A stretch of DNA of 64,000 bases, taken from the NCBI GenBank assembly GCA_964592785.1, contig CAZQHU010000003.1, positions 3,901-67,900 on the forward strand, given 5' to 3'. Source of the stretch: an uncultured Gammaproteobacteria bacterium. GTDB taxonomy: Bacteria > Patescibacteriota > Patescibacteriia > Magasanikbacterales > UBA922. Shown here piece by piece: positions 9,741 through 43,906 of this stretch. Positions within the stretch are counted from its first letter, which is position 1, and the number at the start of each line of letters is the position of its first letter. A program made the translations under genes and the position numbers. The notes below the pieces were generated by a model, which saw only the letters and a list, made by a program, of their open reading frames with translations, made no database searches and had not been told where the DNA came from.

Positions 9741-9743
9741 ATT

Positions 9744-14842: not shown

Positions 14843-15154
14843 TTATTCACTCATCATTGTCACTTTGTCCTGAGCTACGCCGAAGGGTTCTGGCTCAGCT
14901 ACCACTTTCTCTTTTTCTTTTTCTTCTTTCTCACTCTCTCCAACGACAGTGTCTTCAACAATCATCTTTTCTTCATTAATATTCAAAACCTCCTCCCGAC
15001 TGACTAAATATTTTTTTCCTACTAATTTTCCAACTTCATACTGTAAAATATTCTGTCCTTCTGTTTCTAAAATCAAATCCTGAACTTTTCCCAAAATCAC
15101 ACCAGACTTAGTCTGTACCTCCAACTTTTTCAAATGTACCAAACTAATTCGCAT
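14843..15154 (-). CDS. PRC-barrel domain protein with an acidic C-terminal tail
   Basis: ORF track; YlmC/YmxH-like sequence pattern. Confidence 0.45.
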   Translation of the reverse strand: MRISLVHLKKLEVQTKSGVILGKVQDLILETEGQNILQYEVGKLVGKKYLVSREEVLNINEEKMIVEDTVVGESEKEEKEKEKVVAEPEPFGVAQDKVTMMSE

Positions 15155-15199
15155 ACTTTATAACTTTATGGACTTTATAAACTTGATAGACTTTCCATT

Positions 15200-17390: not shown

Positions 17391-17906
17391 ATGGAGGAAA
17401 CCATGGACAGAAACCAACTTCTCAAAAAGATCCAAACAAAGCTTCAAGAAGAAAGAAGCAAAAAAGAAAAAAGGGCTTTGTGGTTGAAATTGTTCAAGGC
17501 TTGTCGATGCCACCGAACTGATTTCATAGATCCAGAATATTTTCCCATCCATGATGAAGAAGGCGAATTCACCGAAAGAGACATACGCCCATATGTTGAG
17601 GAGTATGCCTTCCTCAATCCAGTCACTGGCTATGAAGCCGTTGAACAACTTCTAAAAGGAGGATATTATCTGCTTGAGATGAGGGACGGCCTACTCTACA
17701 TCGGACAGAAGCCCGAAGCAATTGAAAAGCATGAGCTGATAATCATCGGAGCGGTACGCGAAACTGATGATTACATGGCAGTCCCTATTTTCCGTACATC
17801 CAAGATCTTCAGAAGGCGCATAGCTGATTACTATTTCCTCCACTACACTTTCGACACCAACTGTCGCTTTTTGGTCTTCAAAGACAGGACCAGAACTAAT
17901 CCGTAG
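17391..17906 (+). CDS. Hypothetical protein, about 45% GC; possible cassette g
   Basis: GGAGG lies 4 nt upstream of the second ATG (17403). GC-rich palindromic mini-hairpins follow the stop. Confidence 0.5.
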   Translation: MEETMDRNQLLKKIQTKLQEERSKKEKRALWLKLFKACRCHRTDFIDPEYFPIHDEEGEFTERDIRPYVEEYAFLNPVTGYEAVEQLLKGGYYLLEMRDGLLYIGQKPEAIEKHELIIIGAVRETDDYMAVPIFRTSKIFRRRIADYYFLHYTFDTNCRFLVFKDRTRTNP

Positions 17907-24090: not shown

Positions 24091-24194
24091 GAGTTGTCCA
24101 CCATACTCTCCAAAATAACCAGAACTACTTGGTAAAGATTTAAATAAATTAAATTTTTTTTTTTTAATTTTTTTAAATTTAAATTTAATAAATT

Positions 24195-24370
24195 ATTTTT
24201 TTTTTTCTGGGCCCCCCCCCGCAACTGCGGGGCGCTCCACTAACCAGGACTCGACCCTAACAGCCGAGCAATGTCTTACCCTCCCGCCTCATCTGCTCTA
24301 GAACTTTGAGAAACATCGCGTAGCTGTAAGGACGTGGATCCATGGTCATGCCTCCCCATAAAGAACGAAC
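24195..24370. ncRNA. GC-rich (about 60%) structured element of unknown class between yerC and trpB-trpS
   Basis: Flanked by an extreme AT-rich, low-complexity stretch. It matched neither tmRNA, RNase P, SRP, T-box nor tRNA signatures when checked by eye. Confidence 0.3.
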
Positions 24371-24398
24371 AAAAAAACGTCCGGCTTAGGGCCGGACG
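24371..24398 (-). terminator. Intrinsic terminator of yerC
   Basis: Minus strand reads CGTCCGGCcctaaGCCGGACG followed by TTTTTTT. Confidence 0.6.
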
Positions 24399-24495
24399 AT
24401 GTTCACCAAAACACCATCAAACTAGACCCTTCGCCAGAGAAGATATTGCCACCAAGCAAATTGTCTAGTTTGACTATTTTTCATATAAATTCTCG

Positions 24496-24789
24496 TCATT
24501 CCCGCGTCGGCGGAAATCTTTTATTTTTTAAAATCTTATAAAAACCACCTTTTTTATCTAACATCTCTCGCGCTCCTCGCTCTACTTTGGAAATACTCAC
24601 CGCGAGCTTCTTGGCGACTTCACGTTGAGTCAAACCTTGATGTAGGAGTTTCACAATCTGCAAGCGCATGACCACATCTTTTATTTCCGCCGGAGTAAGT
24701 AAATCCGCCAAAAAATCTTCCATCAATTTTTCATCTTTAATACCTACTAAAACTTTTAATAATTCTTTTTTGGCTTGAACAAAACCCAT
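24496..24789 (-). CDS. yerC: TrpR-like YerC/YecD family DNA-binding protein
   Basis: 97-aa protein with the conserved C-terminal HTH (LTQREVAKKLAVSISKVERG). Confidence 0.75.
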   Translation of the reverse strand: MGFVQAKKELLKVLVGIKDEKLMEDFLADLLTPAEIKDVVMRLQIVKLLHQGLTQREVAKKLAVSISKVERGAREMLDKKGGFYKILKNKRFPPTRE

Positions 24790-24867
24790 ACATTATTACT
24801 TTATAAACTTTTTAACTTTACAAACTTTAAACTACCCCGTACTGCTGTACCAGTACAAAAGTATTAT

Positions 24868-24902
24868 ATAAAATAAAAAACCAGCCGTCAATCGACGGCT
24901 GG
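24868..24902 (-). terminator. Intrinsic terminator (or attenuator) at the 3' end of the GC-rich leader
   Basis: Minus strand reads CCAGCCGTCgattGACGGCTGG followed by TTTTTTATTTTAT. Confidence 0.6.
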
Positions 24903-24904
24903 GG

Positions 24905-25150
24905 ATAAAATTGAGCCTATACGAATTTTTTTGGGGAGGTGGACTGCTGCGCCAGTCCACCCCAAGTCTTGCGCTGCGTTCCCCTACTCGCAGAGGGGCG
25001 GTGGAGACGAAGATTGTCTGGGTGTTTATCCCTAAATACCTTCACTTTTCTTCGTCTACCCCGACGGGCCGGTAGGTTGGGACGTCGTCGCCCTACAACA
25101 CCACCACGCAGCGGCTGGAACGGCTGGCCATAGAGCACCTCCTGTTGGCC
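24905..25150 (-). ncRNA. GC-rich (about 60%) structured leader RNA upstream of yerC; riboswitch- or attenuator-like, class unknown
   Basis: Own promoter, AGGAGG SD plus a 12-codon ORF (MASRSSRCVVVL), mutually exclusive helices sharing one GGGG run, an anti-SD CACCTCC, and a terminator about 80 nt before yerC. Confidence 0.45.
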
Positions 25151-25159
25151 ATTACAAAA

Positions 25160-25188
25160 ATATTACTAAATAACCAATAAAAAAGCAA
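25160..25188 (-). promoter_or_regulatory. Promoter TTGCTT-17-TAATAT driving the leader and yerC
   Basis: Minus strand reads aaacTTGCTTttttattggttatttagTAATATttttgta. Confidence 0.5.
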
Positions 25189-25334
25189 GTTTATAAAAAA
25201 TTTTATAAATATAAATAAAGGCTAAACACCACCCTTGAAAAAGATAATTACTTATGTTAAATTTAGTTTAGACAAACACACTCGGAATGGTCCGGGTGGT
25301 GCAACTATGTCTTGCTTCGAAAAGGAGGAACACG

Positions 25335-25601
25335 ATGTACATGGGCATGACGTTCACATTTCCAAAGGAAGGTGTAGAGGATATGTTGACGGCCTTGCGG
25401 ACGTTACGGGGAGTCACCCAGGTGATGGTGCAGGAACCGTACATACCTGTACACCCAACGATCTTTGTCCTTGTCAAGGTGGAAAAAGGGCAAGAATCTG
25501 AAATGCAACGCTATTTCTCAGCTCTTCTCTCGGCCACATGTGGCCGAGATATCCACGACCTGCGTTTCTTCAAAGTCCATGTCTACCCCAATCAGGGGTG
25601 A
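25335..25601 (+). CDS. GC-rich small ORF of 88 aa (cassette c)
   Basis: AAGGAGG lies 6 nt upstream of ATG 25335. The region is about 50% GC. It is followed by the conserved 45-nt 3' module and a terminator. Confidence 0.5.
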   Translation: MYMGMTFTFPKEGVEDMLTALRTLRGVTQVMVQEPYIPVHPTIFVLVKVEKGQESEMQRYFSALLSATCGRDIHDLRFFKVHVYPNQG

Positions 25602-25677
25602 CCTATCTTCGACTGGGTACACCAATCGCACTTTTCCAACTTCGTTGGAGCACCTGAACCTGGAGGATTCAGGGTGA

Positions 25678-25745
25678 CTCAAGTGTTTATAAGTATTTTG
25701 TAAATAGTTGAGAATAAAAAATCCCGATTATATCGGGATTTTACT
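25678..25745 (+). repeat. Conserved cassette 3' module, copy A (caagtgtttataagtattttgtaaatagttgagaataaaaaat plus terminator hairpin)
   Basis: Near-identical to 35240-35306 and 35848-35925. The hairpin sequences differ but the structure is conserved (cccgattatatcggg). Confidence 0.8.
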
Positions 25746-25758
25746 TTATAAACTTAGT

Positions 25759-27546
25759 TTACACCTCAATCACCACTGGGAGAACCATCGGACGCTTTTC
25801 AGTTTTGCTAAATAAAAATTGTCCAACTTTATCGCGAATATTATTTTTTATCTGGTTGGTATCAGCCCAGCTCATAGGATCAGACTCGATCACCATCTTC
25901 TTTACTTTGTGACGAAGATCTTCTATTAGTTGTTTATTATCTTTCAAGAAAATAAAACCTCGAGAAATAATATCTGGATTTTGAATCAGTTTGCCGGTCT
26001 TACTATCTATAGTAGCAATCACCACCACCATACCGTCTTCAGCCAGAACTTGACGATCGCGAAGCACTACATTTTGAGTATCAGAAACTCCCAAACCATC
26101 TACAAACACATAGTTGGATGGCACTTTTTTATCCAGCATCCGCGCGCCAAACTCACCCACTTCGATGATTGAACCATTGTCTGGCACAAAAATCTTATTG
26201 GCATCAAAACCATTTCGAATTGCCAAATTTCTCGCTTCTTTGAGAAAATAGTGATTGGCATAAACGGGGATAAAATAGGTAGGCCGAATTTGTTTGATCA
26301 TTTCCACAATATCTTCGCGGGTAGCATGACCAGAAACATGCACGTCCATGATCTCACCGTGGATCACATTGTCACACTGACGATAAATATTGTCTTTGAG
26401 ACGTTGAATACTACGCTCATTACCAGGAATAATCGAAGAAGAAAAAATCACGGTATCATTTTTGCGCAAACGAATCTGCTTGTGTTCACCAGTAACAATC
26501 CGCACCAAAACTGCGTTTTCTTCACCTTGAGCGCCAGTACAGATAACCACGATTTGCTTGTCAGGATAGTCATCCACTTTTTTGATATCAATTAACAAAC
26601 CTTTGGGTATATTGATATAGCCAAGTTCTTTGGCAATCTCAATATTCATCTTCATAGAGTAGCCATCGAGCGCCACTTTCTTACCCAGTTTGTCTGCCGC
26701 TTCCAAAACCCATTTGATTCTTTCTATTTGCGAAGAAAAAGTGCCAATGATCACCCGCCCAGGAGCACTGTTCAAAATATTTTGTAAATTTTTGTACATT
26801 TCTTCATAGCTACCAGTATGACGATCATTTAGGGAACCCAAACTCTCAAGCATGAGCACTGTGGGTTTATTTAATTTTTGTAATTGAGAATAATTCAAAG
26901 TCGGCTGACCATTCTTGTCACGTTCCATTGTCCAATCGCCCGGATGAATCACTGTGCCCGAAGGAGTTTCAATGATCACTCCTACTGCATCCATGATCGA
27001 ATGTTCAACTTGAAAAAATTTAATTGTAAATTTACCTAGTTGGATACGATCGCCCACGCTTTTGATAAGAATACTCTTCAAACTCTTGGACATGCCTTTT
27101 TTATAATCTTCCAGCTTATGCTTGATAAGCGCCAAAGTCAGGTTACGGCCTACTACCAGAGGATTACCCAACTTTTCCAGTAAAATAGGGGCCGCCCCAA
27201 TGTGATCCAGATGACCATGAGAAAAAACTACTCCGCGAATATTTTTTTCTTTACCTTGTAAATATTTAGTATTAGGAATGATGTAATCAATCCCGGGCAT
27301 GTCTTCCTCAGGAAATTGAATTCCCATGTCCAAAATAACTATATCATTCTCATATTCAAACATCGTCATATTACGCCCCACTTCTTCACAACCACCAAGG
27401 GGGATGATTCTCAAAACTCCTGGGGCACTACCCTTTTCTTCTGGCGTTAAACGTTTGAATGTTGAAAAACCCGGCTTCTTGTGAGGGTGCTTACTACCGC
27501 CAAAACGCCGCTGGCGTCGTGGCTGTGTTTTTTCTTGTGCTATCAT
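25759..27546 (-). CDS. rnj: Ribonuclease J (beta-CASP metallo-beta-lactamase RNase)
   Basis: HGHLDHIG motif in an MBL/beta-CASP/RMMBL architecture, with a basic N-terminal tail. Confidence 0.9.
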   Translation of the reverse strand: MIAQEKTQPRRQRRFGGSKHPHKKPGFSTFKRLTPEEKGSAPGVLRIIPLGGCEEVGRNMTMFEYENDIVILDMGIQFPEEDMPGIDYIIPNTKYLQGKEKNIRGVVFSHGHLDHIGAAPILLEKLGNPLVVGRNLTLALIKHKLEDYKKGMSKSLKSILIKSVGDRIQLGKFTIKFFQVEHSIMDAVGVIIETPSGTVIHPGDWTMERDKNGQPTLNYSQLQKLNKPTVLMLESLGSLNDRHTGSYEEMYKNLQNILNSAPGRVIIGTFSSQIERIKWVLEAADKLGKKVALDGYSMKMNIEIAKELGYINIPKGLLIDIKKVDDYPDKQIVVICTGAQGEENAVLVRIVTGEHKQIRLRKNDTVIFSSSIIPGNERSIQRLKDNIYRQCDNVIHGEIMDVHVSGHATREDIVEMIKQIRPTYFIPVYANHYFLKEARNLAIRNGFDANKIFVPDNGSIIEVGEFGARMLDKKVPSNYVFVDGLGVSDTQNVVLRDRQVLAEDGMVVVIATIDSKTGKLIQNPDIISRGFIFLKDNKQLIEDLRHKVKKMVIESDPMSWADTNQIKNNIRDKVGQFLFSKTEKRPMVLPVVIEV

Positions 27547-27590
27547 AAAATATTTTATTTTTATTTAAATTAAAAAGAAGAAAAAATTTG

Positions 27591-27674
27591 TACCGCGAGA
27601 GAGACTTGAACTCTCATGGCCTTGCGGCCGCTGACACCTGAAGCCAGTGCGTCTACCAATTTCGCCATCGCGGC
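27591..27674 (-). tRNA. tRNA-Leu (anticodon CAG), type II with a long variable arm
   Basis: Minus strand: GCCGCGA-TG-GCGAAATTGGTAGACGC-A-CTGGC-TTCAGGT-GTCAG-CGGCCGCAAGGCCAT-GAGAG-TTCAAGT-CTCTC-TCGCGGT-A. The acceptor, D, anticodon and T stems all pair. The anticodon loop TTCAGGT gives CAG. Confidence 0.85.
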
Positions 27675-27731
27675 TAAGATTATAAATTTCATTTACCCGC
27701 CAAAGCTTTAGCGACGACGGGCCACAAAAGG

Positions 27732-29729
27732 CTATTTCCCAAAATTCCATTGACCGGCAGTTTTGAGATACCAAGAAGTAATGTCAGCAAACCTGTCAGC
27801 TGGCTGTGCAATGCGAGTGACATCCATACCTTTTATGCTGTCGGATAAAGCATAGGTATAAGTCGGAGTGTAGAGAAAAATCGCTGGCAATTCGCTTATC
27901 AAAGTTTCTTGAAATTTTTTATAAAGTTCATTTTTTTCCAACTCATCCATGGTTTCCCGAGCTTTTTGTAAAATAGTGTCAACATTGCGATTGACATAGC
28001 CGGCCAAATTCAAACCCGGATAATCCACTTGGCTAGAATGCCAAAAAGGAAACTGATCCGGATCACTGCCTACTATTTCACCATATAATAAAATATCATA
28101 ATTTCTGGTTCGCAAAACTTCTTTGGTAAAATCCCGAGCTGAAACATAACGCACATTGGCTTTGACACCAATGCCCTGCCAAAAACCAGCCAAGAGCCCG
28201 GCCGCCTGCTTGTACTCTTCTGTACCCACGGTCACCAAATTTACTTCCAAAATTTTTCCTTCTTTATTACGACGATAAAAAGTTTGAGCTTGATTCAATT
28301 CAGCTTCCACTTGAGTTTTAATCTCTTGTCTCACTAAATCTTCCGTGCTTGAGGCCATCTCCCCACTTCCTTGTTCTGGAGTAGTAGTGGCTGTTTCAGG
28401 ATTATTTTTTCGCCATTCTTCAAAAAGTTTCTTTTCCATTTCGATCTGATAGTCACTGGCTGAAATACGTGGCCAGTTTTTATCCAAAAGATTATTAGCC
28501 TCATCCAAATTGTAATTTATTTTACCCAAATTTTCGTCATAAGCAGGAAAACCCGGCAAAACTGGACTATGAATTACCTGCCCTTCACCATTCAAGGCCT
28601 CACGCAAAATTCTATCTTTATCCACTGCCTGGGCCAAAGCCAAACGAACATCCTTGTCTTTCAAAACTTCATTGTTGCGCTGATTGAAAAATAAAGCTGT
28701 ATACTGAGGTAACTGTAAAGTTCGCAAAGCCACATGTTTACGTTCCACCCGTTCACGCAAATTTTTGGGTACAAAACTCAAACTCTGAACTTTGCCTTCT
28801 CTCATGGCCTGCACAGCCCCTGTCTCTCCTTCATAGGCAGAATAAAATTGGAAAATAAATTCTTCAATAAAAGCTGACTGGCGATAAAAACGTTCAAATC
28901 TTTGCAATTCATAGGTATAGATCTTGCCACTGGAATCTTTGGAAAACTTTTTAAACTGAAAAGGTCCGGTGCCAACTGGCTGAATATTGGCTTGAGCCAA
29001 ACGCATTTGTTCAGGAGGAACATTGAACCAAACATGCTCTGGCAAAATACCCACTGTCAAAGACGAAAGAAATGAAGCATAAACTTCGGGGAGTCTAAAA
29101 ACTACAGTATATTCATCTGGTACTTCCACCTCAACTCCTTGAAAACCCAAATACAAAGGACTGGCCGCCAAAACATTTTGAATAGTTTCAACAGTAAATA
29201 ATACATCATTGGCCGTAAAACGCTCCCCATCATGCCAATAAATGTCCTGGCGTAAAACAAAGGTGTAGGTTTTTTTATCATCACTTAAACTATATTTAAC
29301 TGCCAAATCTGGCAACAAACGATTTTTTTTGTCATAACGCATTAACCCTGAAAAAACCAAACGGCTAATATCCGCATCCACTTCATTACTGGCAGCAAAA
29401 ATCGGGTTGATGTACTGGGGACTGCCCACTACCGCCTCGGTCACGATACCACCAACAGTGGGGGCTTCAAGCCGATGAACTCTAACCCAATTGTAACCCG
29501 CCCAAAAAAAACCAAATAAAAAAACTAAAAAACTTATTTTCAAAATCCATTTTTCACGCGGACTCAAAATCCTGGCAATCTGACGCAACTGACAAAAACG
29601 AGGCCAATATCGACCCTGAACCTTTTGTAAAAGTTTGGTATCATAATGATGGGCAACAATCGGCCGTGGATTTTTCCTTTGTTTTTTAATTTTCCATTTG
29701 ACAAACTTGGATCGAAGTAACGATAACAT
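27732..29729 (-). CDS. ABC transporter substrate-binding protein, family 5 (OppA/DppA-like), with an N-terminal membrane anchor
   Basis: SBP_bac_5-like sequence of about 665 aa. Confidence 0.75.
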   Translation of the reverse strand: MLSLLRSKFVKWKIKKQRKNPRPIVAHHYDTKLLQKVQGRYWPRFCQLRQIARILSPREKWILKISFLVFLFGFFWAGYNWVRVHRLEAPTVGGIVTEAVVGSPQYINPIFAASNEVDADISRLVFSGLMRYDKKNRLLPDLAVKYSLSDDKKTYTFVLRQDIYWHDGERFTANDVLFTVETIQNVLAASPLYLGFQGVEVEVPDEYTVVFRLPEVYASFLSSLTVGILPEHVWFNVPPEQMRLAQANIQPVGTGPFQFKKFSKDSSGKIYTYELQRFERFYRQSAFIEEFIFQFYSAYEGETGAVQAMREGKVQSLSFVPKNLRERVERKHVALRTLQLPQYTALFFNQRNNEVLKDKDVRLALAQAVDKDRILREALNGEGQVIHSPVLPGFPAYDENLGKINYNLDEANNLLDKNWPRISASDYQIEMEKKLFEEWRKNNPETATTTPEQGSGEMASSTEDLVRQEIKTQVEAELNQAQTFYRRNKEGKILEVNLVTVGTEEYKQAAGLLAGFWQGIGVKANVRYVSARDFTKEVLRTRNYDILLYGEIVGSDPDQFPFWHSSQVDYPGLNLAGYVNRNVDTILQKARETMDELEKNELYKKFQETLISELPAIFLYTPTYTYALSDSIKGMDVTRIAQPADRFADITSWYLKTAGQWNFGK

Positions 29730-29780
29730 AATAATAACCTTTCCCCACTTGAGGAAAGTAGAAGAAAAACACTGCCTCTA

Positions 29781-29996
29781 TTATATCATTAAATTGGCAA
29801 TAGAAACAGCAAAGAAAAGAATAGAGATAACAATTGTCACTTGAAAAAGCACTTTATCAACTCCACGACGGCTATTATAAACACTGCCACCGCCTCCAAA
29901 GGCACTGCCCAAACCTGAACCACGCTGTTGTAAAAGCACGGCCACGGTCAATAAAATCGCTAAAACTGCCTGTAAAACTGTCAAAACTTTATCCAT
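29781..29996 (-). CDS. secG: Preprotein translocase subunit SecG
   Basis: 71 aa, two TM helices, Gly-rich loop (GSGLGSAFGGGGS). Confidence 0.75.
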   Translation of the reverse strand: MDKVLTVLQAVLAILLTVAVLLQQRGSGLGSAFGGGGSVYNSRRGVDKVLFQVTIVISILFFAVSIANLMI

Positions 29997-30106
29997 AGAT
30001 GTTATTATAATACCCCTCTATTCGAGGTTCTATTAACTGATTTATTTTTTAAGACAAAACAATTATACACCAAGGCCAAAAATAAATCAAGGGGGATACG
30101 CCCCTA

Positions 30107-30135
30107 TTGACAACTTAAGCCACTTTTGCTATAAT
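30107..30135 (+). promoter_or_regulatory. Consensus sigma70 promoter TTGACA-17-TATAAT for rpmE
   Basis: TTGACAacttaagccacttttgcTATAAT lies 25 nt upstream of the ATG. Confidence 0.65.
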
Positions 30136-30159
30136 CACCGCACTTTAATATAAATAAAT

Positions 30160-30438
30160 ATGAGAAAAGACATTCACCCAGAATATTTTGAAAATGCCAA
30201 AGTCACTTGCGCTTGTGGCAACAGTTTTGAAGTTGGCTCCACCAAAAAGGAAATTCGCGTTGAGCTCTGCAATGCCTGCCACCCTTTTTATACCGGCAAG
30301 CAAAAATTTGTAGATACTGCCCGTCGCGTGGAAAAATACAAAGAAAAAATGGATAAAGTTGGCCAAGCAGCTGCTGTACGCAAAGGCAAAAAAGTGAAAA
30401 AAGCTGTGACCAAAGCCAAGAAGACCACCAAAAAATAG
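30160..30438 (+). CDS. rpmE: 50S ribosomal protein L31 with a Lys-rich C-terminal extension
   Basis: MRKDIHPEY...CxxC...CxxC. Confidence 0.85.
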
Positions 30439-30514
30439 CTTTACAAAATAAAAGACAGACTTGGAATTTTCCGGTCTGTTTTTATTTATTTTTTAAACTG
30501 GTATACTTAAATTT

Positions 30515-31573
30515 ATGAATAATAAATACAAGCAAATCAAAGAAAAATATTTAATACTCGAAAAACAACTACAAGACCCAGCTGTGCTTAATGATACACA
30601 AAAATTAAAAAAAACTTCCCAAGAATATGATGATCTAAAAAATACTTATGAAAAAATAGCTATTTTGGAAAATCTTGAAAGAAATCTTGGCGAAGCTGAA
30701 GTCATTGCCAATGACGAAAACAACGAAGAATTGAGACAGCTGGCAGAAATTGAAGTGGAAGAATTGAAAACTAAAAAACAAGAGCTGGAAAAAGAGTTAG
30801 AAGAACTTACTCGTCCTCAAGATCCATTGGATAAAAAAAATGTTATTATAGAAATTCGTGCTGGCGCTGGTGGTGATGAATCGGCTCTCTTTGCTGGTGA
30901 TCTCATGCGTATGTATCTCAAATATGGAGAAGGTAAAGATTGGAAAGCCAGTCTCATTAGTGAAAATCAAATCGGTATTGGCGGTTACAAAGAAGTCATT
31001 TTTTCTTTATCAGGAAAAAATGTTTATCGGGATATGAAATATGAAATGGGTGTGCATCGCGTACAAAGAGTGCCGGAAACTGAAAAATCTGGACGCATCC
31101 ACACTTCCACTGCTTCGGTGGTAGTGCTTCCTGAGATTGATGAGATTGAATTCAAAATCGATCCCAAGGATCTACGCATTGACACTTTCATGGCTGGCGG
31201 ACATGGCGGACAAAGCGTCAATACTACTTATTCAGCAGTCCGCATTACCCATATTCCTACCGGCCTCGTCACTCAATCACAGGATGAAAGATCTCAACTT
31301 CAAAATAAATTAAAAGCCATGAATGTGATGCGCGCCCGACTCTACGAAATGGAGAGAGAAAAGCAAACCGCGGAAATTGATGCCAAACGCAAAAGCCAAA
31401 TCGGCACTGGGGATCGTAGCGAAAAAATCCGCACTTACAACTATCCCCAAGATCGCATCACTGACCATCGCATCCACGAAAGCTGGAATAATATCGGAAC
31501 CATACTAAACGGAAACTTGAATCCAATAATTGATGCACTGAGAAAGGTTGACTATGAAAGACTTGATAGTTAA
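30515..31573 (+). CDS. prfA: Peptide chain release factor 1
   Basis: GGQ motif ([12 protein letters not shown]) and a PxT-type tripeptide region (PET). Confidence 0.9.
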
Positions 31574-31641
31574 AAAGTTCATCAAGTTCATAAAGTCTTT
31601 AAAGTCACCAACTTTATAAACTTTATAACTTTACAAACTTT

Positions 31642-33099
31642 ATGAACTGGTTCAAAAAATATTACCCTCTTCTTATCATTATTCTACTTGGCCTAATACT
31701 CCGTCTTTTTGTAATAATTAAGTATGGTTCATTCTGGGATGACGAAATGTTCAGCTTTGTTTTTAGTCAAAAATCCTGGACAGAAAGTTTTGTTTATTGG
31801 CTCTATGAAACCAACCCGCCTCTGCACTTGTTGTTTTTGAAAATTTGGTTTTATTTTTTACCGGCTAGCGAATTTTTCGCCAGATTACCCAGTCTCTTAT
31901 TTGCTCTCGCCACCATACCTCTCGTCTATTTACTGGGAAAAAATTGGCAAGGAAAAATGACCGGCTATATCACCGCTTTTTATCTAGCTCTTCATCCTTA
32001 CCATATCTTTTGGTCAGCTACTGCCAGGACTTATACCCTAACAATTTTTTTAACTACCGGCGCAGTTTATTTTTTTTATAAAATATTTTTTCTGGAAGAA
32101 AAAAATAGAAAAAATTATTTGGGTCTGGCCATTTTCAACCTACTCTCACTATTATCACACTTATCCGCTAGCTCAATCATACTCACACAAATTTTGTTAT
32201 TGCTCTACAAAAAAACAAATTTCAAACTCTGGTGGCAGATAAATATTACCCCTCTAATTCTCGCTGGCTCTTGGCTAATCTCTTCGCTTTGGTTGAAAAT
32301 GTCTAATCTAAATAAATCGTGGTTTTTCAATTTGAATCATGATCTAGATACATTTCTCACTCCTCTATCTAATATTTTCCTCGGCGTCTACCCACCAAAA
32401 ATGACTTTACTTTTCATTATTCCCCTACTAATTATTTTGTTTATTTTTCTCAGTAAAAAAATTAAAGAAAAAGCAGAAAAAACTTTTGTCATCTTGGCTA
32501 TCGCTCTCCTACCGATGTTTATTTCTTTTTTCTTAAATCTCTGGCATATCAAATTTTTCCTAGTCAGTTTGCCTTTTTGGCTCTTATTGGTAGCTGGAGC
32601 TTTTGCAGAAGTTTTGAAAAACAAAAAATTAATTTTTATAGCCTTGGGATTATTTTGTAGTAGTGGACTTATTTTTTTATGGTCTTTCTTGCCACTGACA
32701 AACTGGCAACCACTGCAAAAATATCTCACTACAAATTTTAATCCAGCCAAAAAACAAGCTCTGGTTTATAACAACTACATATTGGACCCACAAATAGAAA
32801 AGTACTTGAAACCGCCACAAGAAAACATGCCTTTTGTAATAGAATCAGAAAAAAATTGGGAAGATTGGGCAGTAAAAAGAAATTATCTTTATATTAAATA
32901 CTCCCAAGAACAGCTAACAAATTGGCTATCAAAAAATAATTTATTTGCCAATCAAGAAATCTTTCTTATTCAGGGCGAATATGATTACATGACCAATTTA
33001 AATAAATTACTGGAAAAAAATAATTATATTTTAGAGCAACCTGCTTGGCGTTTGCCTATTCTCGGTCGTTATTATCTCTATCACTATGTCAAAAATTGA
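31642..33099 (+). CDS. GT39/GT83-family glycosyltransferase (ArnT/PMT-like), polytopic
   Basis: N-terminal DDE-containing loop, more than 10 TM helices, and the family architecture. Confidence 0.65.
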   Translation: MNWFKKYYPLLIIILLGLILRLFVIIKYGSFWDDEMFSFVFSQKSWTESFVYWLYETNPPLHLLFLKIWFYFLPASEFFARLPSLLFALATIPLVYLLGKNWQGKMTGYITAFYLALHPYHIFWSATARTYTLTIFLTTGAVYFFYKIFFLEEKNRKNYLGLAIFNLLSLLSHLSASSIILTQILLLLYKKTNFKLWWQINITPLILAGSWLISSLWLKMSNLNKSWFFNLNHDLDTFLTPLSNIFLGVYPPKMTLLFIIPLLIILFIFLSKKIKEKAEKTFVILAIALLPMFISFFLNLWHIKFFLVSLPFWLLLVAGAFAEVLKNKKLIFIALGLFCSSGLIFLWSFLPLTNWQPLQKYLTTNFNPAKKQALVYNNYILDPQIEKYLKPPQENMPFVIESEKNWEDWAVKRNYLYIKYSQEQLTNWLSKNNLFANQEIFLIQGEYDYMTNLNKLLEKNNYILEQPAWRLPILGRYYLYHYVKN

Positions 33100-34006
33100 T
33101 CAGCGTGAAATTGAGTTAATTAAAGCATTTGTGTTGAAAAAACCACGCGAATTTTTTATTGCCCACCCGGAGTACCAAGTTAGCAAGTTAGCAAGTGAAC
33201 AAGTGAATAAGTTGATTAAAAAACGTACTCGTGGTATTCCACTCGCTTATTTACTTGGCAAAAAAGAATTTTTTGGGTTGAATTTTACAGTAAATAAAAA
33301 TGTTTTGATTCCTCGCCCAGAGACAGAACTGATGGTAGAAAAAGTTTTACAAAAAATCAAGAATTCAAAAAACCAAGAAATTATTTTAATTGATATTGGA
33401 ACTGGTACTGGATGTATTCCCATTTCAATCATAAAAACAATTAACCCCACCCTACCCTCCCCTACAAGGGGAGGGAAAGGGAGAGGTTTCGCCGTCTTTG
33501 CCACGGACATCTCCCAACCAGCTTTGTCTGTCGCCAAAAAAAACGCCAAAAAACATAATGTAAAAATAAAATTCCTTCACGGCAACTTGCTTGAACCATT
33601 TCTCTGTCATCCTGAATTTATTTCAGGATCTTTCCCAAAATCAAACCTGCTAAAAAGTATATCTGGAGAAAAGATGCTGAAACAAGTTCAGCATGACATC
33701 ATCATCACCGCCAACCTCCCCTATCTTACACCTCAACAACTTAAACAAGAACCCTCAATAAAACACGAACCTCACCTCGCCCTCGTCGCTGGCAAAGATG
33801 GACTAAAATACTACCGAGAACTTCTTAAACAAATTAATATATTGACTTCGGACTACAGACTACAGACTACAGTTTTTTGCGAAATAAATCCGGAACAAAC
33901 AAAAAATATAAAACTCCTTACTAAAAAAATTCTTCCCCAAGCCAAAATAACCCTCCACCAAGATCTGGCTGGAAAAAATAGAGTGGTGGAGATAATTCCC
34001 CTCTAG
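33086..34006 (+). CDS. prmC: Release factor glutamine N5-methyltransferase PrmC/HemK; contains two in-frame palindromic-element insertions
   Basis: SAM motif IDIGTGTG and NLPY (a variant of NPPY). Classic prfA...prmC linkage. Confidence 0.85.
   Translation: MSKIDQREIELIKAFVLKKPREFFIAHPEYQVSKLASEQVNKLIKKRTRGIPLAYLLGKKEFFGLNFTVNKNVLIPRPETELMVEKVLQKIKNSKNQEIILIDIGTGTGCIPISIIKTINPTLPSPTRGGKGRGFAVFATDISQPALSVAKKNAKKHNVKIKFLHGNLLEPFLCHPEFISGSFPKSNLLKSISGEKMLKQVQHDIIITANLPYLTPQQLKQEPSIKHEPHLALVAGKDGLKYYRELLKQINILTSDYRLQTTVFCEINPEQTKNIKLLTKKILPQAKITLHQDLAGKNRVVEIIPL
33606..33698. repeat. Two-hairpin MITE-like element, copy 2; 93 nt, inserted in frame in prmC
   Basis: It encodes LCHPEFISGSFPKSNLLKSISGEKMLKQVQHD between the SAM-binding region and the NLPY motif. 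Confidence 0.75.
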
Positions 34007-34150
34007 AGAGGGGTGCCCGCTCAAGCGGGTGGGGTGTGTTACAATAGCAAAAATTAAAAACAACGGTCACACACCCCGTCTGCCTCCCGCCTGCCATGCC
34101 TGGCACTGGCGGGCAGGGCGAAGGCATACACCCCTCTCCAGAGGGGATCG
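34001..34150. mobile_element. Cargo-less TIR pair (MITE) of the DUF559-element family
   Basis: CCCCTCTAGAGAGGGGTG-hairpin-GGGGTGTGTTAC, an 18-nt spacer, then CGGTCACACACCCC-long hairpin-CACCCCTCTCCAGAGGGG. Confidence 0.6.
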
Positions 34151-34164
34151 CCTCTTGACAAACC

Positions 34165-34193
34165 CATAAAAATAAGCTATAATGCCCTGTTCT
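34165..34193 (+). promoter_or_regulatory. Consensus promoter TTGACA-17-TATAAT of cassette d
   Basis: TTGACAaacccataaaaataagcTATAAT. Confidence 0.65.
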
Positions 34194-34393
34194 TTGAAAA
34201 TTTTCAAACGGCTTATAAATTAGCCAATTTTTGACTAATGTCTAGGCCGTTTGAGGCTTAGGGAACAGAAAAACTACTGTTGAAGGAGTGGCCTGTATAG
34301 GGGGCAACTACCGAGACCTTTTTGAAGGTCATTACAGCAAGTTTCTGTTTTCCCGACTTCCTGTTCCGCCCGAGGCGGACAAGAGGAGGTACC

Positions 34394-35161
34394 ATGCCCA
34401 GTTTCTCCAACAAGTTCCTGAAAGTGGAGAGCGACCGCTCTCCGGTGGGACAGCGGACCCGTCTGCTGGTCCTCTGGTCATACTTCATGGCCATTCTCCT
34501 GGGTGGCCTGTGGCTGATGCCCAGCTCGATGGCAGTGGCGAACCTGATCCTGATGGGTTTGAACACCCTCATCTTCGCCCGCTGGGTGTCCAAGAATGGG
34601 GTGGATTACTACCCCAAGAAGGAAAACAGAAAATACCCCCCGTTTCTTCCGAGATGGGGAGAGGGTACGCGTCGGTACTACTTCGTACCGGCGATCATGA
34701 CCAGCACGATCTGGTCGGCAGTGTTTTTCGGCTGGAACACCTGGTTCAGCGAAAACTTGTTGTGGATTGTTTTGGGTGTTATGTGCATCCTTCTCGCCAT
34801 CTTTCTGGTCCCCTACCTGTGGGGTAAGAGGGCATCCAGGAAAAGCAAGAGATTCATGGCCCAGCAAGACGAGGAGAGACGAAAGCAGAAGGAGATCGAC
34901 GAGCTGATTCAAGCGGCGATGGGAAGGAAGGAACTCGAGATTTACGAGAGGGAGAAAGAGTTCCTTCGTGACCTGGCAGTAATCATCGCCAACTTCCACT
35001 ACGAAAAGGGAAGAAAGCCCTCGAAGAGGGACGCCGAACTCCGGCAGAAACTCGAGGCGATCCTCGAGTACTTCGTCGGCCCGAGCGAGGCCGAGGCCAT
35101 GGTCGCCGAGGAGCTCTACCGCCTCACTCGTGAGGCGAAGAAGGCCACGGTGGCCACTTAG
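34394..35161 (+). CDS. GC-rich (about 57%) membrane protein of 255 aa: about 4 TM helices plus a charged coiled-coil C-terminus (cassette d)
   Basis: GAGGAGG lies 5 nt upstream of ATG 34394. The overlapping track ORFs 34258-34999 on other frames are GC artefacts. gttcgttcttt follows the stop. Confidence 0.6.
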   Translation: MPSFSNKFLKVESDRSPVGQRTRLLVLWSYFMAILLGGLWLMPSSMAVANLILMGLNTLIFARWVSKNGVDYYPKKENRKYPPFLPRWGEGTRRYYFVPAIMTSTIWSAVFFGWNTWFSENLLWIVLGVMCILLAIFLVPYLWGKRASRKSKRFMAQQDEERRKQKEIDELIQAAMGRKELEIYEREKEFLRDLAVIIANFHYEKGRKPSKRDAELRQKLEAILEYFVGPSEAEAMVAEELYRLTREAKKATVAT

Positions 35162-35180
35162 ACACTGTTCGTTCTTTAGA

Positions 35181-35232
35181 GGGGCGCCGACCGGTTGAGT
35201 TGAGATTTACTTCTCCTCCCGGTCGGCGCCCC
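35181..35232 (+). repeat. Conserved 3' hairpin of cassette d (14-bp stem GGGGCGCCGACCGG / CCGGTCGGCGCCCC)
   Basis: Cassette e carries GTCCGACCGG/CCGGTCGGAC, a compensatory variant, and shares the loop start ttgagtt. Confidence 0.7.
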
Positions 35233-35239
35233 GATGTAA

Positions 35240-35306
35240 TCAAGTGTTTGTAAAATATTTTGTAAATAGTTGAAAATAAAAAATCCGCTGATAAGGCGGT
35301 TTTTTT
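35240..35306 (+). repeat. Conserved cassette 3' module, copy B, plus terminator
   Basis: tcaagtgtttgtaaaatattttgtaaatagttgaaaataaaaaat-CCGCTGataaGGCGG-ttttttt. Confidence 0.8.
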
Positions 35307-35341
35307 GTTTGTCATCCCTTTTGTAAAAGGTAAGATGGGTA

Positions 35342-35370
35342 TTGACAAAAACACAAAAATAAGCCAATAT
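35342..35370 (+). promoter_or_regulatory. Promoter TTGACA-17-CAATAT of cassette e
   Basis: Shares the spacer motif aaaataagc with the promoter at 34165. Confidence 0.55.
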
Positions 35371-35408
35371 TGTTATAGGAAATTCGTCATCTACAGGAGG
35401 TTTTCTCA

Positions 35409-35747
35409 ATGGCAAATAATTATCACTTGTCTGGTCCTTTTTCCTTCGGTATCCTATCTCCAAAGAACAAGGAGGAAAAGTACAGTATTTTCTTCCTGTC
35501 AATTCTTAGGGGCGACGAAGTGCACCGAGCCTATCTCTGCTACTCCAAGCAACAAGTTCGAAACGTGTTTGACCAGTTCAGACCTTGTATTGCACCAGAC
35601 GAACTCAAGATAGCGGAAGATTTCGTAACCCATAACCAGCACGTACCCGAATTCTCGAACCACAAGATGAGGGAATACAACGGACGAGAGGCCGAAGTGT
35701 TCACCGCGCTCATGTCCACTGGGCACTACGCAAGCATTGCCAACTGA
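35409..35747 (+). CDS. GC-rich small protein of 112 aa (cassette e)
   Basis: AGGAGG lies 8 nt upstream of the ATG. A tttcgttctttag motif and a hairpin follow the stop. Confidence 0.55.
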   Translation: MANNYHLSGPFSFGILSPKNKEEKYSIFFLSILRGDEVHRAYLCYSKQQVRNVFDQFRPCIAPDELKIAEDFVTHNQHVPEFSNHKMREYNGREAEVFTALMSTGHYASIAN

Positions 35748-35792
35748 CCATCCGCCCGAGTCAGGGCAAACCAAATTGTTTCGTTCTTTAGC

Positions 35793-35841
35793 GGGTCCGA
35801 CCGGTTGAGTTAATGCCTCCTTGGCATTCTCCCGGTCGGAC
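35793..35841 (+). repeat. Conserved 3' hairpin of cassette e
   Basis: GTCCGACCGG-ttgagtt...-CCGGTCGGAC. Confidence 0.65.
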
Positions 35842-35847
35842 AATCCA

Positions 35848-35925
35848 ATCAAATGTTTGTAAAAATTATTTTGTAAATAGTTGAGAATAAAAAATCACTT
35901 AATAATCTAAGTGATTTTTTATTTT
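35848..35925 (+). repeat. Conserved cassette 3' module, copy C, plus terminator
   Basis: atcaaatgtttgtaaaaattattttgtaaatagttgagaataaaaaat-CACTTaataatctAAGTG-tttttt. Confidence 0.8.
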
Positions 35926-36172
35926 TTAGAACGACAATTGGCTGGGGTTTGGGGCCGCCAACCTGTTTGAGCTAGAAGTGCTTGATGGATATGTATATTA
36001 TTAGTATGGCGAGTCTTGGCGGCCCCAAAACTTTTTTGTTACTTTTTTGGTTACAAAAAAGTAAAGAGTGATTATTTTGTCATAAACTTCGGCAAACTCT
36101 CCTGGCCTACGGGCCACCCTCTCTTGGAAAGAGAGGGATGACAAACATCCACCTATATTTTTATTTTTTGTT

Positions 36173-37664: not shown

Positions 37665-37700
37665 AACTTTGACATCATACTACAAAAAAATCAAAAAATC

Positions 37701-37733
37701 AAAAACCGCCCCGCAATATGCGGGGCTGTTTTT
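37701..37733. terminator. Bidirectional terminator
   Basis: aaaaaccGCCCCGCaatatGCGGGGCtgttttt. Confidence 0.6.
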
Positions 37734-37806
37734 GACTGTCCCCGACTGTTCGGTGCGACAGTCGGGATCTCCTTGCTTGTTTGCCCTGAGACGGGCAGAG
37801 AGAACC

Positions 37807-38319: not shown

Positions 38320-38382
38320 CTTGCTAACAAGCTGTCAGAGACAAGCTTAACAAAAGCATTCTTGACTGTCAATAATTACACA

Positions 38383-41620: not shown

Positions 41621-43906
<2,286 letters not shown>

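What the first reader, a model, noticed from the sequence alone, without database searches (positions are those of the whole stretch)
25235..25755. Distant third copy of the cassette architecture, carrying the same 45-nt 3' module
An 88-aa GC-rich ORF with AAGGAGG 6 nt before the ATG is followed at 25678-25745 by ctcaagtgtttataagtattttgtaaatagttgagaataaaaaat plus a terminator hairpin. That is the same module as at 35240 and 35848. This copy lies about 9 kb away and is wedged against the convergent rnj gene. The ORFs themselves are unrelated, so what is conserved is the non-coding chassis.
Basis: seen in the sequence. Interest (0 to 1): 0.7.

Follow-up and report, generated by a model that had tools for sequence, protein, structure and literature searches.

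The report
Conserved 3' RNA module on orphan-gene cassettes
Three unrelated, unusually GC-rich genes of unknown function in this candidate-phylum bacterium end in the same AU-rich RNA hairpin plus terminator; distant relatives carry a self-cleaving hammerhead ribozyme at that spot, so this is probably an undescribed signal for shaping mRNA ends on swappable accessory genes.

Summary
A 45-nt block (27-nt core identical) occurs three times in the window, at 25678, 35240 and 35849 (0 expected by chance). Each copy lies between a GC3-rich orphan ORF and an intrinsic terminator. The three ORFs are unrelated.

The block is a 13-bp AU-rich hairpin (P2) plus the A-tract of a bidirectional terminator. 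GC-rich hairpins upstream covary. The terminator stem downstream differs in every copy.

The same block follows other unrelated GC-rich ORFs in Ca. Magasanikbacteria GW2011_GWC2_37_14 and in two metagenome contigs. Four copies carry a ~29-nt hairpin inserted exactly in the P2 loop.

Between strains 99.5% identical elsewhere, the ORF of cassette 2 is replaced while its promoter and 3' UTR persist. In more distant relatives the syntenic cassette has a canonical type III hammerhead where P2 sits.

No Rfam family, integrase, transposase or phage signal accounts for the module.

Best reading: a lineage-specific cis-acting 3'-UTR RNA module (3'-end processing or stability, plus termination) on moron-like accessory-gene cassettes. 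The architecture is shown; the function is inferred.

The parts
25235..25263 (+). Promoter-like site of cassette 1 (TTGAAA-17-TAAATT with TG extension)
25322..25328 (+). Shine-Dalgarno AAGGAGG, 6 nt before the ATG
   Evidence: read directly
25335..25601 (+). Cassette 1 ORF, 88 aa. Orphan (only itself among 5.8 billion proteins). GC by codon position 0.56/0.35/0.60. AF2 single-sequence model has pLDDT 80 and a ferredoxin-like beta-alpha-beta-beta-alpha-beta fold.
25634..25650 (+). 3'-UTR hairpin P0 (UUCCAAC/GUUGGAG), type A
   Evidence: fold. Five of 7 pairs change on both sides across family members (alignment fitted to the model).
25651..25676 (+). 3'-UTR hairpin P1 type A (CACCUGAA...UUCAGGGUG, loop CCUGGAGGA)
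   Evidence: fold. Three compensatory pairs versus GW2011_GWC2_37_14 and Ga0172379 copies.
25678..25712 (+). P2, the AU-rich hairpin that forms most of the '45-nt module' (UCAAgUGUUUAUAA / UUGUAAAUAgUUGA)
25713..25722 (+). A-tract AAUAAAAAAU, the rest of the module. It pairs with the downstream U-tract, extending the terminator stem.
25718..25745 (.). P3, a bidirectional intrinsic terminator (core CCCGAU-UAU-AUCGGG, 25723-25737) shared with convergent rnj
   Evidence: One search reports it on the minus strand as 25742-25718.
25759..27546 (-). rnj (RNase J), convergent neighbour
34155..34183 (+). Cassette 2 promoter, a perfect TTGACA-17-TATAAT
34184..34393 (+). Cassette 2 5' leader, conserved at the nucleotide level in distant relatives. 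The predicted fold sequesters the SD.
34394..35161 (+). Cassette 2 ORF, 255 aa, predicted membrane protein, GC3 0.78. Three relatives among 1.84 billion representatives.
35181..35232 (+). P1 type B hairpin (GGGGCGCCGACCGG...CCGGUCGGCGCCCC) of cassette 2
35240..35284 (+). Module copy 2 (P2 35240-35273 plus A-tract)
35285..35306 (+). Terminator of cassette 2 (CCGCU-GAUAA-GGCGG plus U7)
   Evidence: Three compensatory pairs versus allele L034.
35342..35371 (+). Cassette 3 promoter-like site (TTGACA-18-AATATT)
35409..35747 (+). Cassette 3 ORF, 112 aa, no family, GC3 0.58
35795..35841 (+). P1 type B hairpin of cassette 3
35849..35897 (+). Module copy 3 (P2 35849-35884 plus A-tract)
35887..35922 (+). 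Terminator of cassette 3 (A-tract / CACUUA...UAAGUG / U-tract, 15-bp stem)

Best explanation
The 45-nt block is the 3'-terminal part of a modular, transcribed 3' UTR. This UTR belongs to a class of self-contained accessory-gene cassettes in a narrow clade of Candidatus Magasanikbacteria (CPR/Patescibacteria).

Each cassette has, in order:
- a sigma-70-type promoter;
- a leader with a strong RBS;
- a GC3-rich, fast-evolving or replaceable ORF;
- a short post-stop motif (CGUUCUUU / CUUUUCC);
- one or two GC-rich hairpins (P0/P1, in two types);
- the sequence-invariant AU-rich hairpin P2;
- an A-tract;
- a variable GC hairpin and U-tract, which together with the A-tract form a bidirectional intrinsic terminator.

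Shown: the anatomy, the strand specificity, the conservation pattern, the restriction to GC3-rich cassettes and the cassette turnover.

Inferred: P2 acts in the mRNA as a sequence-specifically recognised element that sets the mature 3' end or the stability of the cassette transcript. For example, it could be a site for an endoribonuclease or an RNA-binding protein, leaving the GC-rich P1 hairpin as a protective 3' end. This would be the same job the self-cleaving hammerhead would do at the identical position in distant relatives. The A-tract/P3/U-tract insulates the cassette from its neighbours in both directions.
For: Position and strand:
- All copies lie on the sense strand between the stop codon and the terminator.
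- P2 is predicted in every copy independently, with whole-UTR folding z-scores of -4.5 to -7.7.
- P2 has two invariant G-U pairs and one A-U/G-U switch. It is therefore a hairpin only on the sense strand. The antisense strand scores 13-17 bits against 72-77 bits for the sense strand.

Structure tolerance:
- The ~29-nt extra hairpin in L002, L025, L030 and L034 sits exactly in the P2 loop.
- A dimeric DNA-binding site or a Xer-type site would not tolerate this insertion.

Selection on sequence:
- P2 is invariant while the adjacent P0/P1 covary (8 pairs with double changes; 98% of cells paired against 45-54% in slid controls).
- The terminator stem is different in every copy, with compensatory changes even between alleles.
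- The block is conserved in GW2011_GWC2_37_14, whose RNase J is 82% identical.

Association:
- 3 of 3 window copies and 5 of 5 copies elsewhere follow ORFs with GC3 of 0.58-0.88; housekeeping genes have 0.33-0.38.

Hammerhead link:
- L035 and L036, the syntenic cassette after prmC, have full-length Hammerhead_3 matches with all core bases. Scores are 35.5 and 37.1 bits, local E-values 2e-6 and 7e-7.
- These hammerheads lie between P1 and the A-tract/terminator, where P2 lies in the window.

Terminators and promoters.
Against: - There are no transcript data, so transcription, 3' ends and processing are all inferred.
- P2 shows no covariation because it never varies. Its pairing rests on energy prediction, the loop insertion and the G-U pattern.
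- The alignment used was fitted to the model and leans towards the structure.
- Only 8 sequences from about 5 genomes or populations are available. Collection scans were capped and used exact matching, so the true distribution and copy number are unknown.
- Nucleotide-level homology between P2 and the hammerhead region is uncertain. Positional equivalence does not prove equivalent function.
- Several GC3-rich cassettes in the window lack P2, so it is not required for such genes.
Confidence: 0.5

Rival explanations
1. The module is a recombination feature. Either the conserved flanks (promoter plus GTTCTTT on one side, GTTCTTT plus P1/P2/terminator on the other) serve as homology arms for cassette exchange, or P2 is a folded single-stranded-DNA site for a site-specific recombinase (attC-like). 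Under this reading the chassis is a docking platform for incoming GC-rich genes.
For: - Cassette 2 has three alleles among near-identical strains. The window and L030 share the promoter (86%) and 3' UTR (93%), but the ORF DNA cannot be aligned. L034 is 86% identical to the window.
- The edges of the variable segment coincide with GTTCTTT on both sides.
- The rnj-trpR gap holds different GC-rich content in GW2011_GWC2_37_14.
- P2 is strand-specific and has a loop of variable length, as attC sites have.
Against: - No integrase, transposase or reverse transcriptase was found among the window ORFs checked.
- The R-box consensus is missed on both arms: ACTCAAG versus RYYYAAC, and GTTGAGA versus GTTRRRY.
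- No extrahelical bases are predicted.
- The cassettes are dispersed, carry their own promoters and are not in an array.
- GTTCTTT is not enriched in the window (20 found, 18.8 expected).
- Cassette 2 has stayed at the same locus across distant relatives.
Confidence: 0.15
2. The block has no function beyond termination. It is the upstream part of one terminator region, copied along when a cassette was duplicated (cassettes 2 and 3 are adjacent) and kept similar by gene conversion.
For: - Ten of the 45 nt are the terminator A-tract.
- Cassettes 2 and 3 also share promoter and P1 type, consistent with tandem duplication.
- Rfam's only weak matches are terminator-containing leaders.
Against: - The part that should matter least for termination (P2) is invariant, while the terminator stem itself differs in every copy.
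- The block is joined to two unrelated P1 types and to unrelated ORFs.
- It is conserved across genomes with 82% RNase J identity.
- The loop insertion preserves both arms.
Confidence: 0.15
3. P0/P1/P2, or P2 with its flanks, is an undescribed self-cleaving ribozyme, or the core of a 3'-UTR-derived small RNA, that took over from the hammerhead.
For: - A hammerhead occupies the same slot in the syntenic cassette of relatives.
- According to the review PMC6155905, prokaryotic hammerheads flank small non-conserved ORFs, and new ribozyme classes were found through exactly this association.
- The near-invariant nucleotides in and around P2 resemble a catalytic or recognition core more than a simple stem.
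Against: - No known ribozyme family scores even at E<=10 on the window 3' UTRs.
- The predicted fold is three simple adjacent hairpins, with no junction or pseudoknot evident.
- Types A and B share only P2, which alone is a plain AU-rich hairpin.
Confidence: 0.1
4. P2 is a double-stranded DNA operator or a Xer/dif-like site bound by a dimeric protein.
For: The two arms are an imperfect inverted repeat (11 of 14 positions). By eye they resemble the 11-6-11 layout and the ATAA/TTAT inner bases of dif sites. This is my own recollection of dif, not a tested match.
Against: - Spacing between the arms is 5, 6, 8 or about 37 nt in different copies.
- All three non-complementary positions are G-U or G-G on the sense strand only.
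- The site always lies inside a transcribed 3' UTR in one orientation.
Confidence: 0.05

Closest known systems
Prokaryotic hammerhead ribozymes (type III, Rfam RF00008) flanking small non-conserved ORFs
   Same: Small, poorly conserved ORFs of unknown function carry a conserved structured RNA next to them. In relatives L035 and L036 the element in this very slot is a canonical type III hammerhead. The biological role of such bacterial hammerheads is an open question (PMC6155905).
   Different: The window copies lack the CUGANGA/GAAA core and score for no ribozyme family. The context is housekeeping chromosome, not prophage.
Phage 'morons' (promoter-gene-terminator units of deviant base composition)
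   Same: Both are autonomous units with their own sigma-70 promoter and intrinsic terminator. Both have composition unlike the neighbours and are inserted between unrelated genes.
   Different: These units are not in a prophage and have no PHROG or phage matches. They share a conserved structured 3' UTR, which is not a moron feature.
Integron gene cassettes with attC sites (e.g. Vibrio cholerae repeats)
   Same: Unrelated ORFs are each followed by the same species-specific imperfect palindrome with a variable loop, and cassette content differs between strains.
   Different: No intI. The cassettes have promoters and terminators, are dispersed and are not in an array. The R-box consensus and extrahelical bases are not met. 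Conservation extends well beyond the palindrome.
REP-type extragenic palindromes and 3' stabiliser stem-loops
   Same: Both are an imperfect palindrome in the 3' UTR between stop codon and terminator, and both are plausibly mRNA-stabilising.
   Different: There are only 3 copies in 64 kb, all tied to one gene class. There is no GTAG head and no RAYT gene was seen. The genome's abundant palindromic repeats are different sequences.
Bidirectional intrinsic terminators
   Same: An A-tract, a GC hairpin and a U-tract sit between convergent genes (cassette 1 and rnj).
   Different: This explains only the last 10 nt of the module and the following hairpin. It does not explain the invariant P2.

Membership tests
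Hammerhead ribozyme type III (RF00008) | Core CUGANGA ... GAAA with cleavage site UH, joined by three helices | tested here: not met
   No hammerhead match at E<=5-10 in window 24100-25800, 33900-36200 or 25595-25790. My regex and stem scan finds none at the module sites. The feature is met in relatives L035 4800-4866 (35.5 bits) and L036 2784-2850 (37.1 bits), both full length but below the gathering score of 48.5.
Any Rfam 15 family | Score at or above the family's gathering threshold | tested here: not met
   The only hit in the window is tRNA-Leu. Sub-threshold hits at the module are terminator-bearing leaders and sRNAs.
Intrinsic (Rho-independent) terminator, bidirectional | GC-containing hairpin followed by a U-tract, with a matching A-tract upstream | tested here: met
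   This applies to positions 25713-25745, 35274-35306 and 35885-35922, not to P2.
Integron attC site | R'' RYYYAAC and R' GTTRRRY boxes that pair | tested here: not met
   The arms read ACTCAAG and GTTGAGA (GTTGAAA in copy 2), 6 of 7 each. The C-G pair of AAC/GTT is replaced by a G-G mismatch.
Integron attC site | Extrahelical bases in the L box; bottom-strand folding | tested here: not met
   The predicted P2 has one 1x1 internal mismatch and no bulged bases. The G-U pairs favour the top (sense) strand.
Integron | intI integrase with attI next to an array of promoterless cassettes | tested here: not met
   No integrase among about 30 window ORFs scanned with Pfam. The cassettes have promoters and lie 9.5 kb apart between housekeeping genes. 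The rest of the genome could not be examined.
REP element / RAYT system | Many copies spread over intergenic regions, conserved GTAG head, a RAYT (Y1 transposase) gene | tested here: inconclusive
   There are three copies in 64 kb, all behind GC3-rich ORFs, with no GTAG head (read directly) and no Y1 transposase in the window. Genome-wide count and RAYT presence are not testable here.
Xer/dif-type site | Two 11-bp arms separated by a fixed 6-8 bp spacer | tested here: not met
   The spacer between arms is 5-8 nt in four copies and about 37 nt in four others.
Phage moron | Promoter-ORF-terminator unit of deviant composition | tested here: met
Phage moron | Located within a prophage or phage genome | tested here: not met
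   The neighbours are trpR-like, rnj, prmC, DUF3048, L25, gyrB and nusG. There are no PHROG hits, no viral-contig match to the module and no tblastn hits in phages.
3'-UTR-derived small RNA | A discrete stable RNA released from the mRNA 3' end | not testable with these tools
   This needs RNA-seq or a Northern blot.

The most novel reading that the evidence does not exclude
The P0/P1/P2 3' UTR may be a new RNA class that replaced a hammerhead: either a new self-cleaving motif or a dedicated protein-dependent processing site. The 'chassis' (promoter-GTTCTTT ... GTTCTTT-P1-P2-terminator) may be an integrase-independent docking platform through which Magasanikbacteria exchange GC3-rich orphan genes. 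This would link the long-unexplained bacterial association of hammerheads with small ORFs to a cassette-exchange system in CPR bacteria.
Probability: 0.1. Interest if true: 0.85.

Novelty: new variant of a known kind. Interest (0 to 1): 0.6.

Why it matters
CPR/Patescibacteria genomes are small and full of genes of unknown function, and almost nothing is known about their RNA-level regulation.

This finding gives a concrete, testable unit: accessory genes that differ between near-identical strains, keep a codon usage foreign to the genome, and share a conserved promoter and a structured 3' UTR.

The same slot holds a hammerhead in some lineages and an invariant hairpin in others. That gives a natural experiment on what bacterial hammerheads next to small orphan ORFs are for, which is an open question. 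It also gives a specific candidate RNA to test for cleavage or protein binding.

There is also a practical warning. Public gene calls in these GC-rich islands can be on the wrong strand.

Tried and rejected
- Known RNA families: Rfam at gathering and at permissive thresholds on the window and 9 loci found nothing for the module.
- Protein families for the cassette ORFs: Pfam, PHROGs and PADLOC gave nothing.
- Phage or plasmid origin: no viral-contig match to the module and no tblastn hits for two cassette proteins in phages or plasmids.
- Recent horizontal transfer as the sole cause of GC-richness: rejected for cassette 2. It sits after prmC in distant relatives and keeps GC3 of 0.66-0.78 there. 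Transfer does look right for the thiolase-containing island of GW2011_GWC2_37_14.
- Non-coding GC-rich RNA instead of ORFs: rejected. GC3 is far above GC2. Alleles differ in frame, with 24 synonymous and 40 non-synonymous codon changes. The 88-aa protein has a confident AF2 fold.
- Pistol ribozyme: I recalled a UAAAUAGUUG stretch from a published pistol sequence, but Rfam's pistol model does not score, so I dropped it.
- Remote homology between the two cassette-2 ORF variants (window versus L030): BLASTP E = 0.05-0.5, not established.
- Exact-protein look-ups for five window proteins were 'not on record'. The downstream side of the L030 contig therefore could not be fetched.
- MAFFT misplaced one gap in P1, so the pair counts were made on a model-fitted alignment instead.
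- GTTCTTT as an enriched motif: it is not enriched.

Full report
**1. Observation**

AAGGAGG lies at 25322-25328, followed by 6 nt and then ATG at 25335. The ORF runs to 25601 and encodes 88 aa. The block ctcaagtgtttataagtattttgtaaatagttgagaataaaaaat lies at 25678-25722. It is followed by the hairpin CCCGATtatATCGGG and a run of T. The stop codon of a convergent 595-aa gene lies at 25759. Pfam confirms that gene as RNase J.

The 27-nt core TTTTGTAAATAGTTGARAATAAAAAAT occurs exactly three times, at 25696, 35258 and 35869, all on the + strand. None is expected in shuffles. A covariance model of the block scores 72-77 bits at these three sites and at most 23.9 bits elsewhere in the window. The three upstream ORFs (88, 255 and 112 aa) show no mutual similarity.

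**2. Organism and context**

The window is about 39% GC and carries housekeeping genes. These include trpB, a TrpR-like gene, rnj, tRNA-Leu, secG, rpmE, prfA, prmC, a DUF3048 gene, rplY, ftsW, gyrB, nusG, rplK, nusA and yidC. Its RNase J is 82% identical to that of Candidatus Magasanikbacteria GW2011_GWC2_37_14, the nearest named relative. No integrase, transposase or reverse transcriptase was found among about 30 ORFs scanned.

**3. The cassettes**

Each module-bearing unit has a sigma-70-like promoter: 25235-25263; a perfect TTGACA-17-TATAAT at 34155-34183; and 35342-35371. Each also has a strong RBS and an ORF richer in GC than its surroundings.

GC by codon position shows real coding sequence with a foreign codon usage. 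GC3 is 0.60, 0.78 and 0.58 for the three cassette ORFs. It is 0.33-0.38 for rnj, gyrB, prmC and trpB.

The ORFs are orphans:
- The 88-aa protein matches only itself among 5.8 billion proteins.
- The 255-aa protein has three relatives among 1.84 billion representatives.
- None has a Pfam, PHROG or PADLOC family.

The 88-aa protein nevertheless gives a confident single-sequence AlphaFold model (pLDDT 80, pTM 0.69). The fold is a generic ferredoxin-like beta-alpha-beta-beta-alpha-beta, which does not indicate a function.

Further GC3-rich orphan units exist in the window without the module. They lie at 9425-9745, 17391-17906, 37700-38330, 44020-45250 and 57300-57665.

**4. Anatomy of the module**

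Folding each 3' UTR on its own gives the same layout every time:
- one or two GC-rich hairpins;
- a hairpin P2 made of the two halves of the '45-nt module' (UCAAgUGUUUAUAA / UUGUAAAUAgUUGA: 13 pairs and one G-G mismatch);
- the A-tract AAUAAAAAAU;
- a GC hairpin and a U-tract.

The A-tract pairs with the U-tract. The last 10 nt of the module are therefore the upstream half of a bidirectional intrinsic terminator. For copy 1 that terminator is shared with rnj.

The upstream hairpins come in two types. Type A is P0 plus P1 with a GGAGGA loop, found in copy 1. Type B is a 14-bp GGGGCGCCGACCGG stem, found in copies 2 and 3.

**5. Relatives**

An exact-match scan of one genome per species found the core in a single genome, GW2011_GWC2_37_14. 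A metagenome scan gave 28 stretches. Five of them, from three or four contigs, are true members. A viral scan gave none.

Every true copy follows a 57-64% GC ORF unrelated to those in the window: a 352-aa protein, its 67%-identical homologue, and a 277-aa membrane protein.

In L002, L025, L030 and L034 a ~29-nt hairpin (for example CCCUCCCACCUAUGUAUAGGUGAAAGGGU) is inserted exactly in the P2 loop, leaving both arms intact.

On a model-fitted alignment of seven copies:
- P0 has 5 of 7 pairs with changes on both sides.
- P1 type A has 3 such pairs.
- P2 has 12 of 13 pairs invariant and one A-U/G-U switch.
- 98% of cells pair, against 45-54% when partners are slid by 1-3 columns.

Two invariant G-U pairs make P2 a hairpin on the sense strand only.

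The terminator stem is different in every copy. Between two alleles of cassette 2 it differs by three compensatory pairs: CCGCU/GGCGG versus UCACC/GGUGA.

The pattern is therefore an invariant P2 flanked by freely covarying helices. This argues for sequence-specific recognition of P2, not mere stem formation.

**6. Cassette turnover**

Logan contigs carrying the 88-aa protein are 99.4-99.5% identical to the window over 24233-33585. In L030 the similarity then changes along the locus:

| Region | Identity of L030 to window |
|---|---|
| 3' half of prmC | 79% |
| Cassette 2 promoter | 86% |
| Leader and ORF | Cannot be aligned |
| Start of the 3' UTR onward | 93% |

L030 encodes a different 300-aa membrane protein plus a 31-aa peptide there.

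A third allele, L034, is 86% identical in DNA. It has 24 synonymous and 40 non-synonymous codon differences and one in-frame indel.

The two edges of the replaced segment each carry GTTCTTT, although that 7-mer is not enriched in the window.

At the rnj-trpR gap, GW2011_GWC2_37_14 holds a 4-kb island of 62-71% GC instead of cassette 1. The island has a thiolase and two unknown genes (GC3 0.81-0.90), oriented like cassette 1.

**7. The hammerhead**

The two distant relatives of the cassette 2 protein (30-34% identity) lie at the same place, directly after prmC. They are in genomes whose neighbouring proteins are 55-76% identical to the window's. They are still GC3-rich (0.66-0.72 against 0.30 for prmC). 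For this cassette, then, GC-richness is maintained rather than a trace of recent transfer.

Their ~210-nt leader is conserved at the DNA level with the window. It is predicted to sequester the SD.

Their 3' UTR has the same post-stop CGUUCUUU motif, a P1-like hairpin and the A-tract plus terminator. Between those elements, where the window has P2, lies a complete type III hammerhead: AAAUGUC|, stem I, CUGAUGA, stem II, GAAAC, stem III. It matches Rfam Hammerhead_3 over the full model at 35.5 and 37.1 bits (local E-values 2e-6 and 7e-7). This is below the gathering score of 48.5, apparently because stem II carries a long loop.

The window's 3' UTRs have no hammerhead core and no match to any ribozyme family, even at E<=10. 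MAFFT aligns parts of P2 with parts of the hammerhead region. I treat this as positional equivalence, not demonstrated homology.

**8. Interpretation**

The best-supported reading is a cis-acting RNA module of the cassette mRNA. The terminator part insulates the cassette from neighbours in both directions. P2 is a recognised hairpin that most likely governs 3'-end processing or stability.

A hammerhead at that place would cut off the terminator and leave the GC-rich P1 hairpin as the 3' end. An endonuclease or binding protein acting at P2 could do the same. This step is inference; no transcript data exist.

The rivals, in order of my confidence:
- A recombination role for the conserved flanks, or an attC-like single-stranded site. 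Turnover supports it; the absence of an integrase, the failed attC features and the dispersed promoter-bearing units count against it.
- A functionless copy of a terminator region. The invariance of P2 next to variable terminator stems, and its conservation across genomes, count against it.
- A new ribozyme or a 3'-UTR small RNA. This is attractive because, per the review PMC6155905, prokaryotic hammerheads flank small non-conserved ORFs and new ribozyme classes were found through that association. There is no positive evidence for it here.
- A DNA operator or dif-like site. Arm spacing of 5 to about 37 nt counts against it.

**9. Comparison and novelty**

Horizontal transfer and genomic islands in Patescibacteria are documented in general (PMC12455944). 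I found no paper linking Magasanikbacteria to GC-rich genes, or Patescibacteria to hammerhead ribozymes.

The unit works like a phage moron but is not in a prophage. It resembles integron cassettes in having unrelated ORFs followed by a common palindrome, but it fails the attC and intI tests. It belongs to the known but unexplained pattern of hammerheads beside small orphan ORFs, yet carries a different, uncatalogued RNA.

I rate it a new variant of a known kind. It is of moderate to good interest, mainly as a lead for RNA biology in CPR bacteria.

**10. Limits**

The source genome outside the window could not be searched. The genome and metagenome scans were single, exact-match scans. Only about eight module sequences exist. 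The pair counts come from a model-fitted alignment. All functional statements are inferred from sequence.

Noticed in passing
window 33661-33698; also 9773-9810 and 51883-51920: The palindromic repeat GATGCTGAAACAAGTTCAGCATGACA occurs three times. One copy sits in frame inside prmC (...GEKMLKQVQHD...). The 99.5%-identical strain L030 lacks it: its prmC is 290 aa rather than 306 aa, and it has a different palindrome (CCCCTTTTTAAAGGGGGG) at that spot. It looks like a RPE/MITE-like element that tolerates coding insertion.
   Followed up: partly
window 34184-34393 (L035:3672-3885, L036:1661-1874): The ~210-nt 5' leader of cassette 2 is about 80% conserved in DNA with distant relatives, although the protein is only 30% identical. 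RNAalifold predicts several helices, and the last one pairs CUUCCU with the Shine-Dalgarno sequence. There is no Rfam match. It is a candidate riboswitch-like or regulatory leader.
   Followed up: partly
window 25160-24881, minus strand: A GC-rich unit of about 270 nt is transcribed divergently from cassette 1. It has a promoter-like TTGCTT-17-TAATAT, an RBS followed by only 12 codons, several GC hairpins and its own terminator (24902-24881). It is a candidate small RNA or leader. It is conserved in the near-identical strains, and I did not see it in GW2011_GWC2_37_14 by eye.
   Followed up: no
window about 24248-24343, minus strand: A 31-codon GC-rich ORF with RBS GGGAGG lies between the TrpR-like gene and trpB. 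It is preceded by TTCGTTCTTTA, the motif that otherwise follows cassette stop codons.
   Followed up: no
window 9425-9745 (+), 17391-17906 (+), 37700-38330 (-), 44020-45250 (-), 57300-57665 (+): Five further GC-richer orphan units lack the P2 module. I read promoter-like sequences by eye upstream of the 9425 and 44020 units, terminator hairpins at four of the five, and GC3 is 0.48-0.68 in the four measured. The 9425 unit has the post-stop CGTTCTTTCC motif. The 44020 unit has a loosely similar ...AGAUUGAGGGAAAAACAUCCCGG... before its terminator.
   Followed up: partly
L039 4780-8690 (LBSX01000003.1, GW2011_GWC2_37_14): A 4-kb island of 62-71% GC lies between rnj and trpR, with a thiolase (Pfam) and two unknown genes. 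The gene calls on record there are on the wrong strand: their GC1 is 0.84-0.90, whereas the opposite-strand ORFs have GC3 of 0.81-0.90.
   Followed up: partly
window 27651 / L030 3419-3542: Strain L030 has 123 extra bases next to tRNA-Leu that hold a second tRNA gene (L030 3440-3521). This is a tRNA-gene presence/absence polymorphism between 99.5%-identical strains.
   Followed up: no
window 34189-34195 and 35171-35177 (also L030, L035, L036): GTTCTTT sits a few bases after the -10 box of the cassette 2 promoter and again just after the stop codon. These are exactly the two edges of the segment that differs between the window and L030. The 7-mer is not enriched overall (20 found, 18.8 expected). 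It could be a crossover or duplication site, or a coincidence.
   Followed up: partly
window 15146-15186, 24798-24829, 31585-31642, 41623-41654: A phased AT-rich repeat, ACTTTATAAACTTT(A/T)TAACTTTACAAACTTTA, lies immediately upstream of several start codons (TrpR-like gene, PMT_2 gene, gyrB). Its orientation relative to the gene is not constant. It may be curved DNA or a UP-like promoter element.
   Followed up: no
window 46072-46127: The best sub-threshold match to the module model (23.9 bits) lies between nusG and rplK. It is an AU-rich hairpin followed by AAAUAAAAAAU. It is probably just another A-tract terminator region.
   Followed up: no
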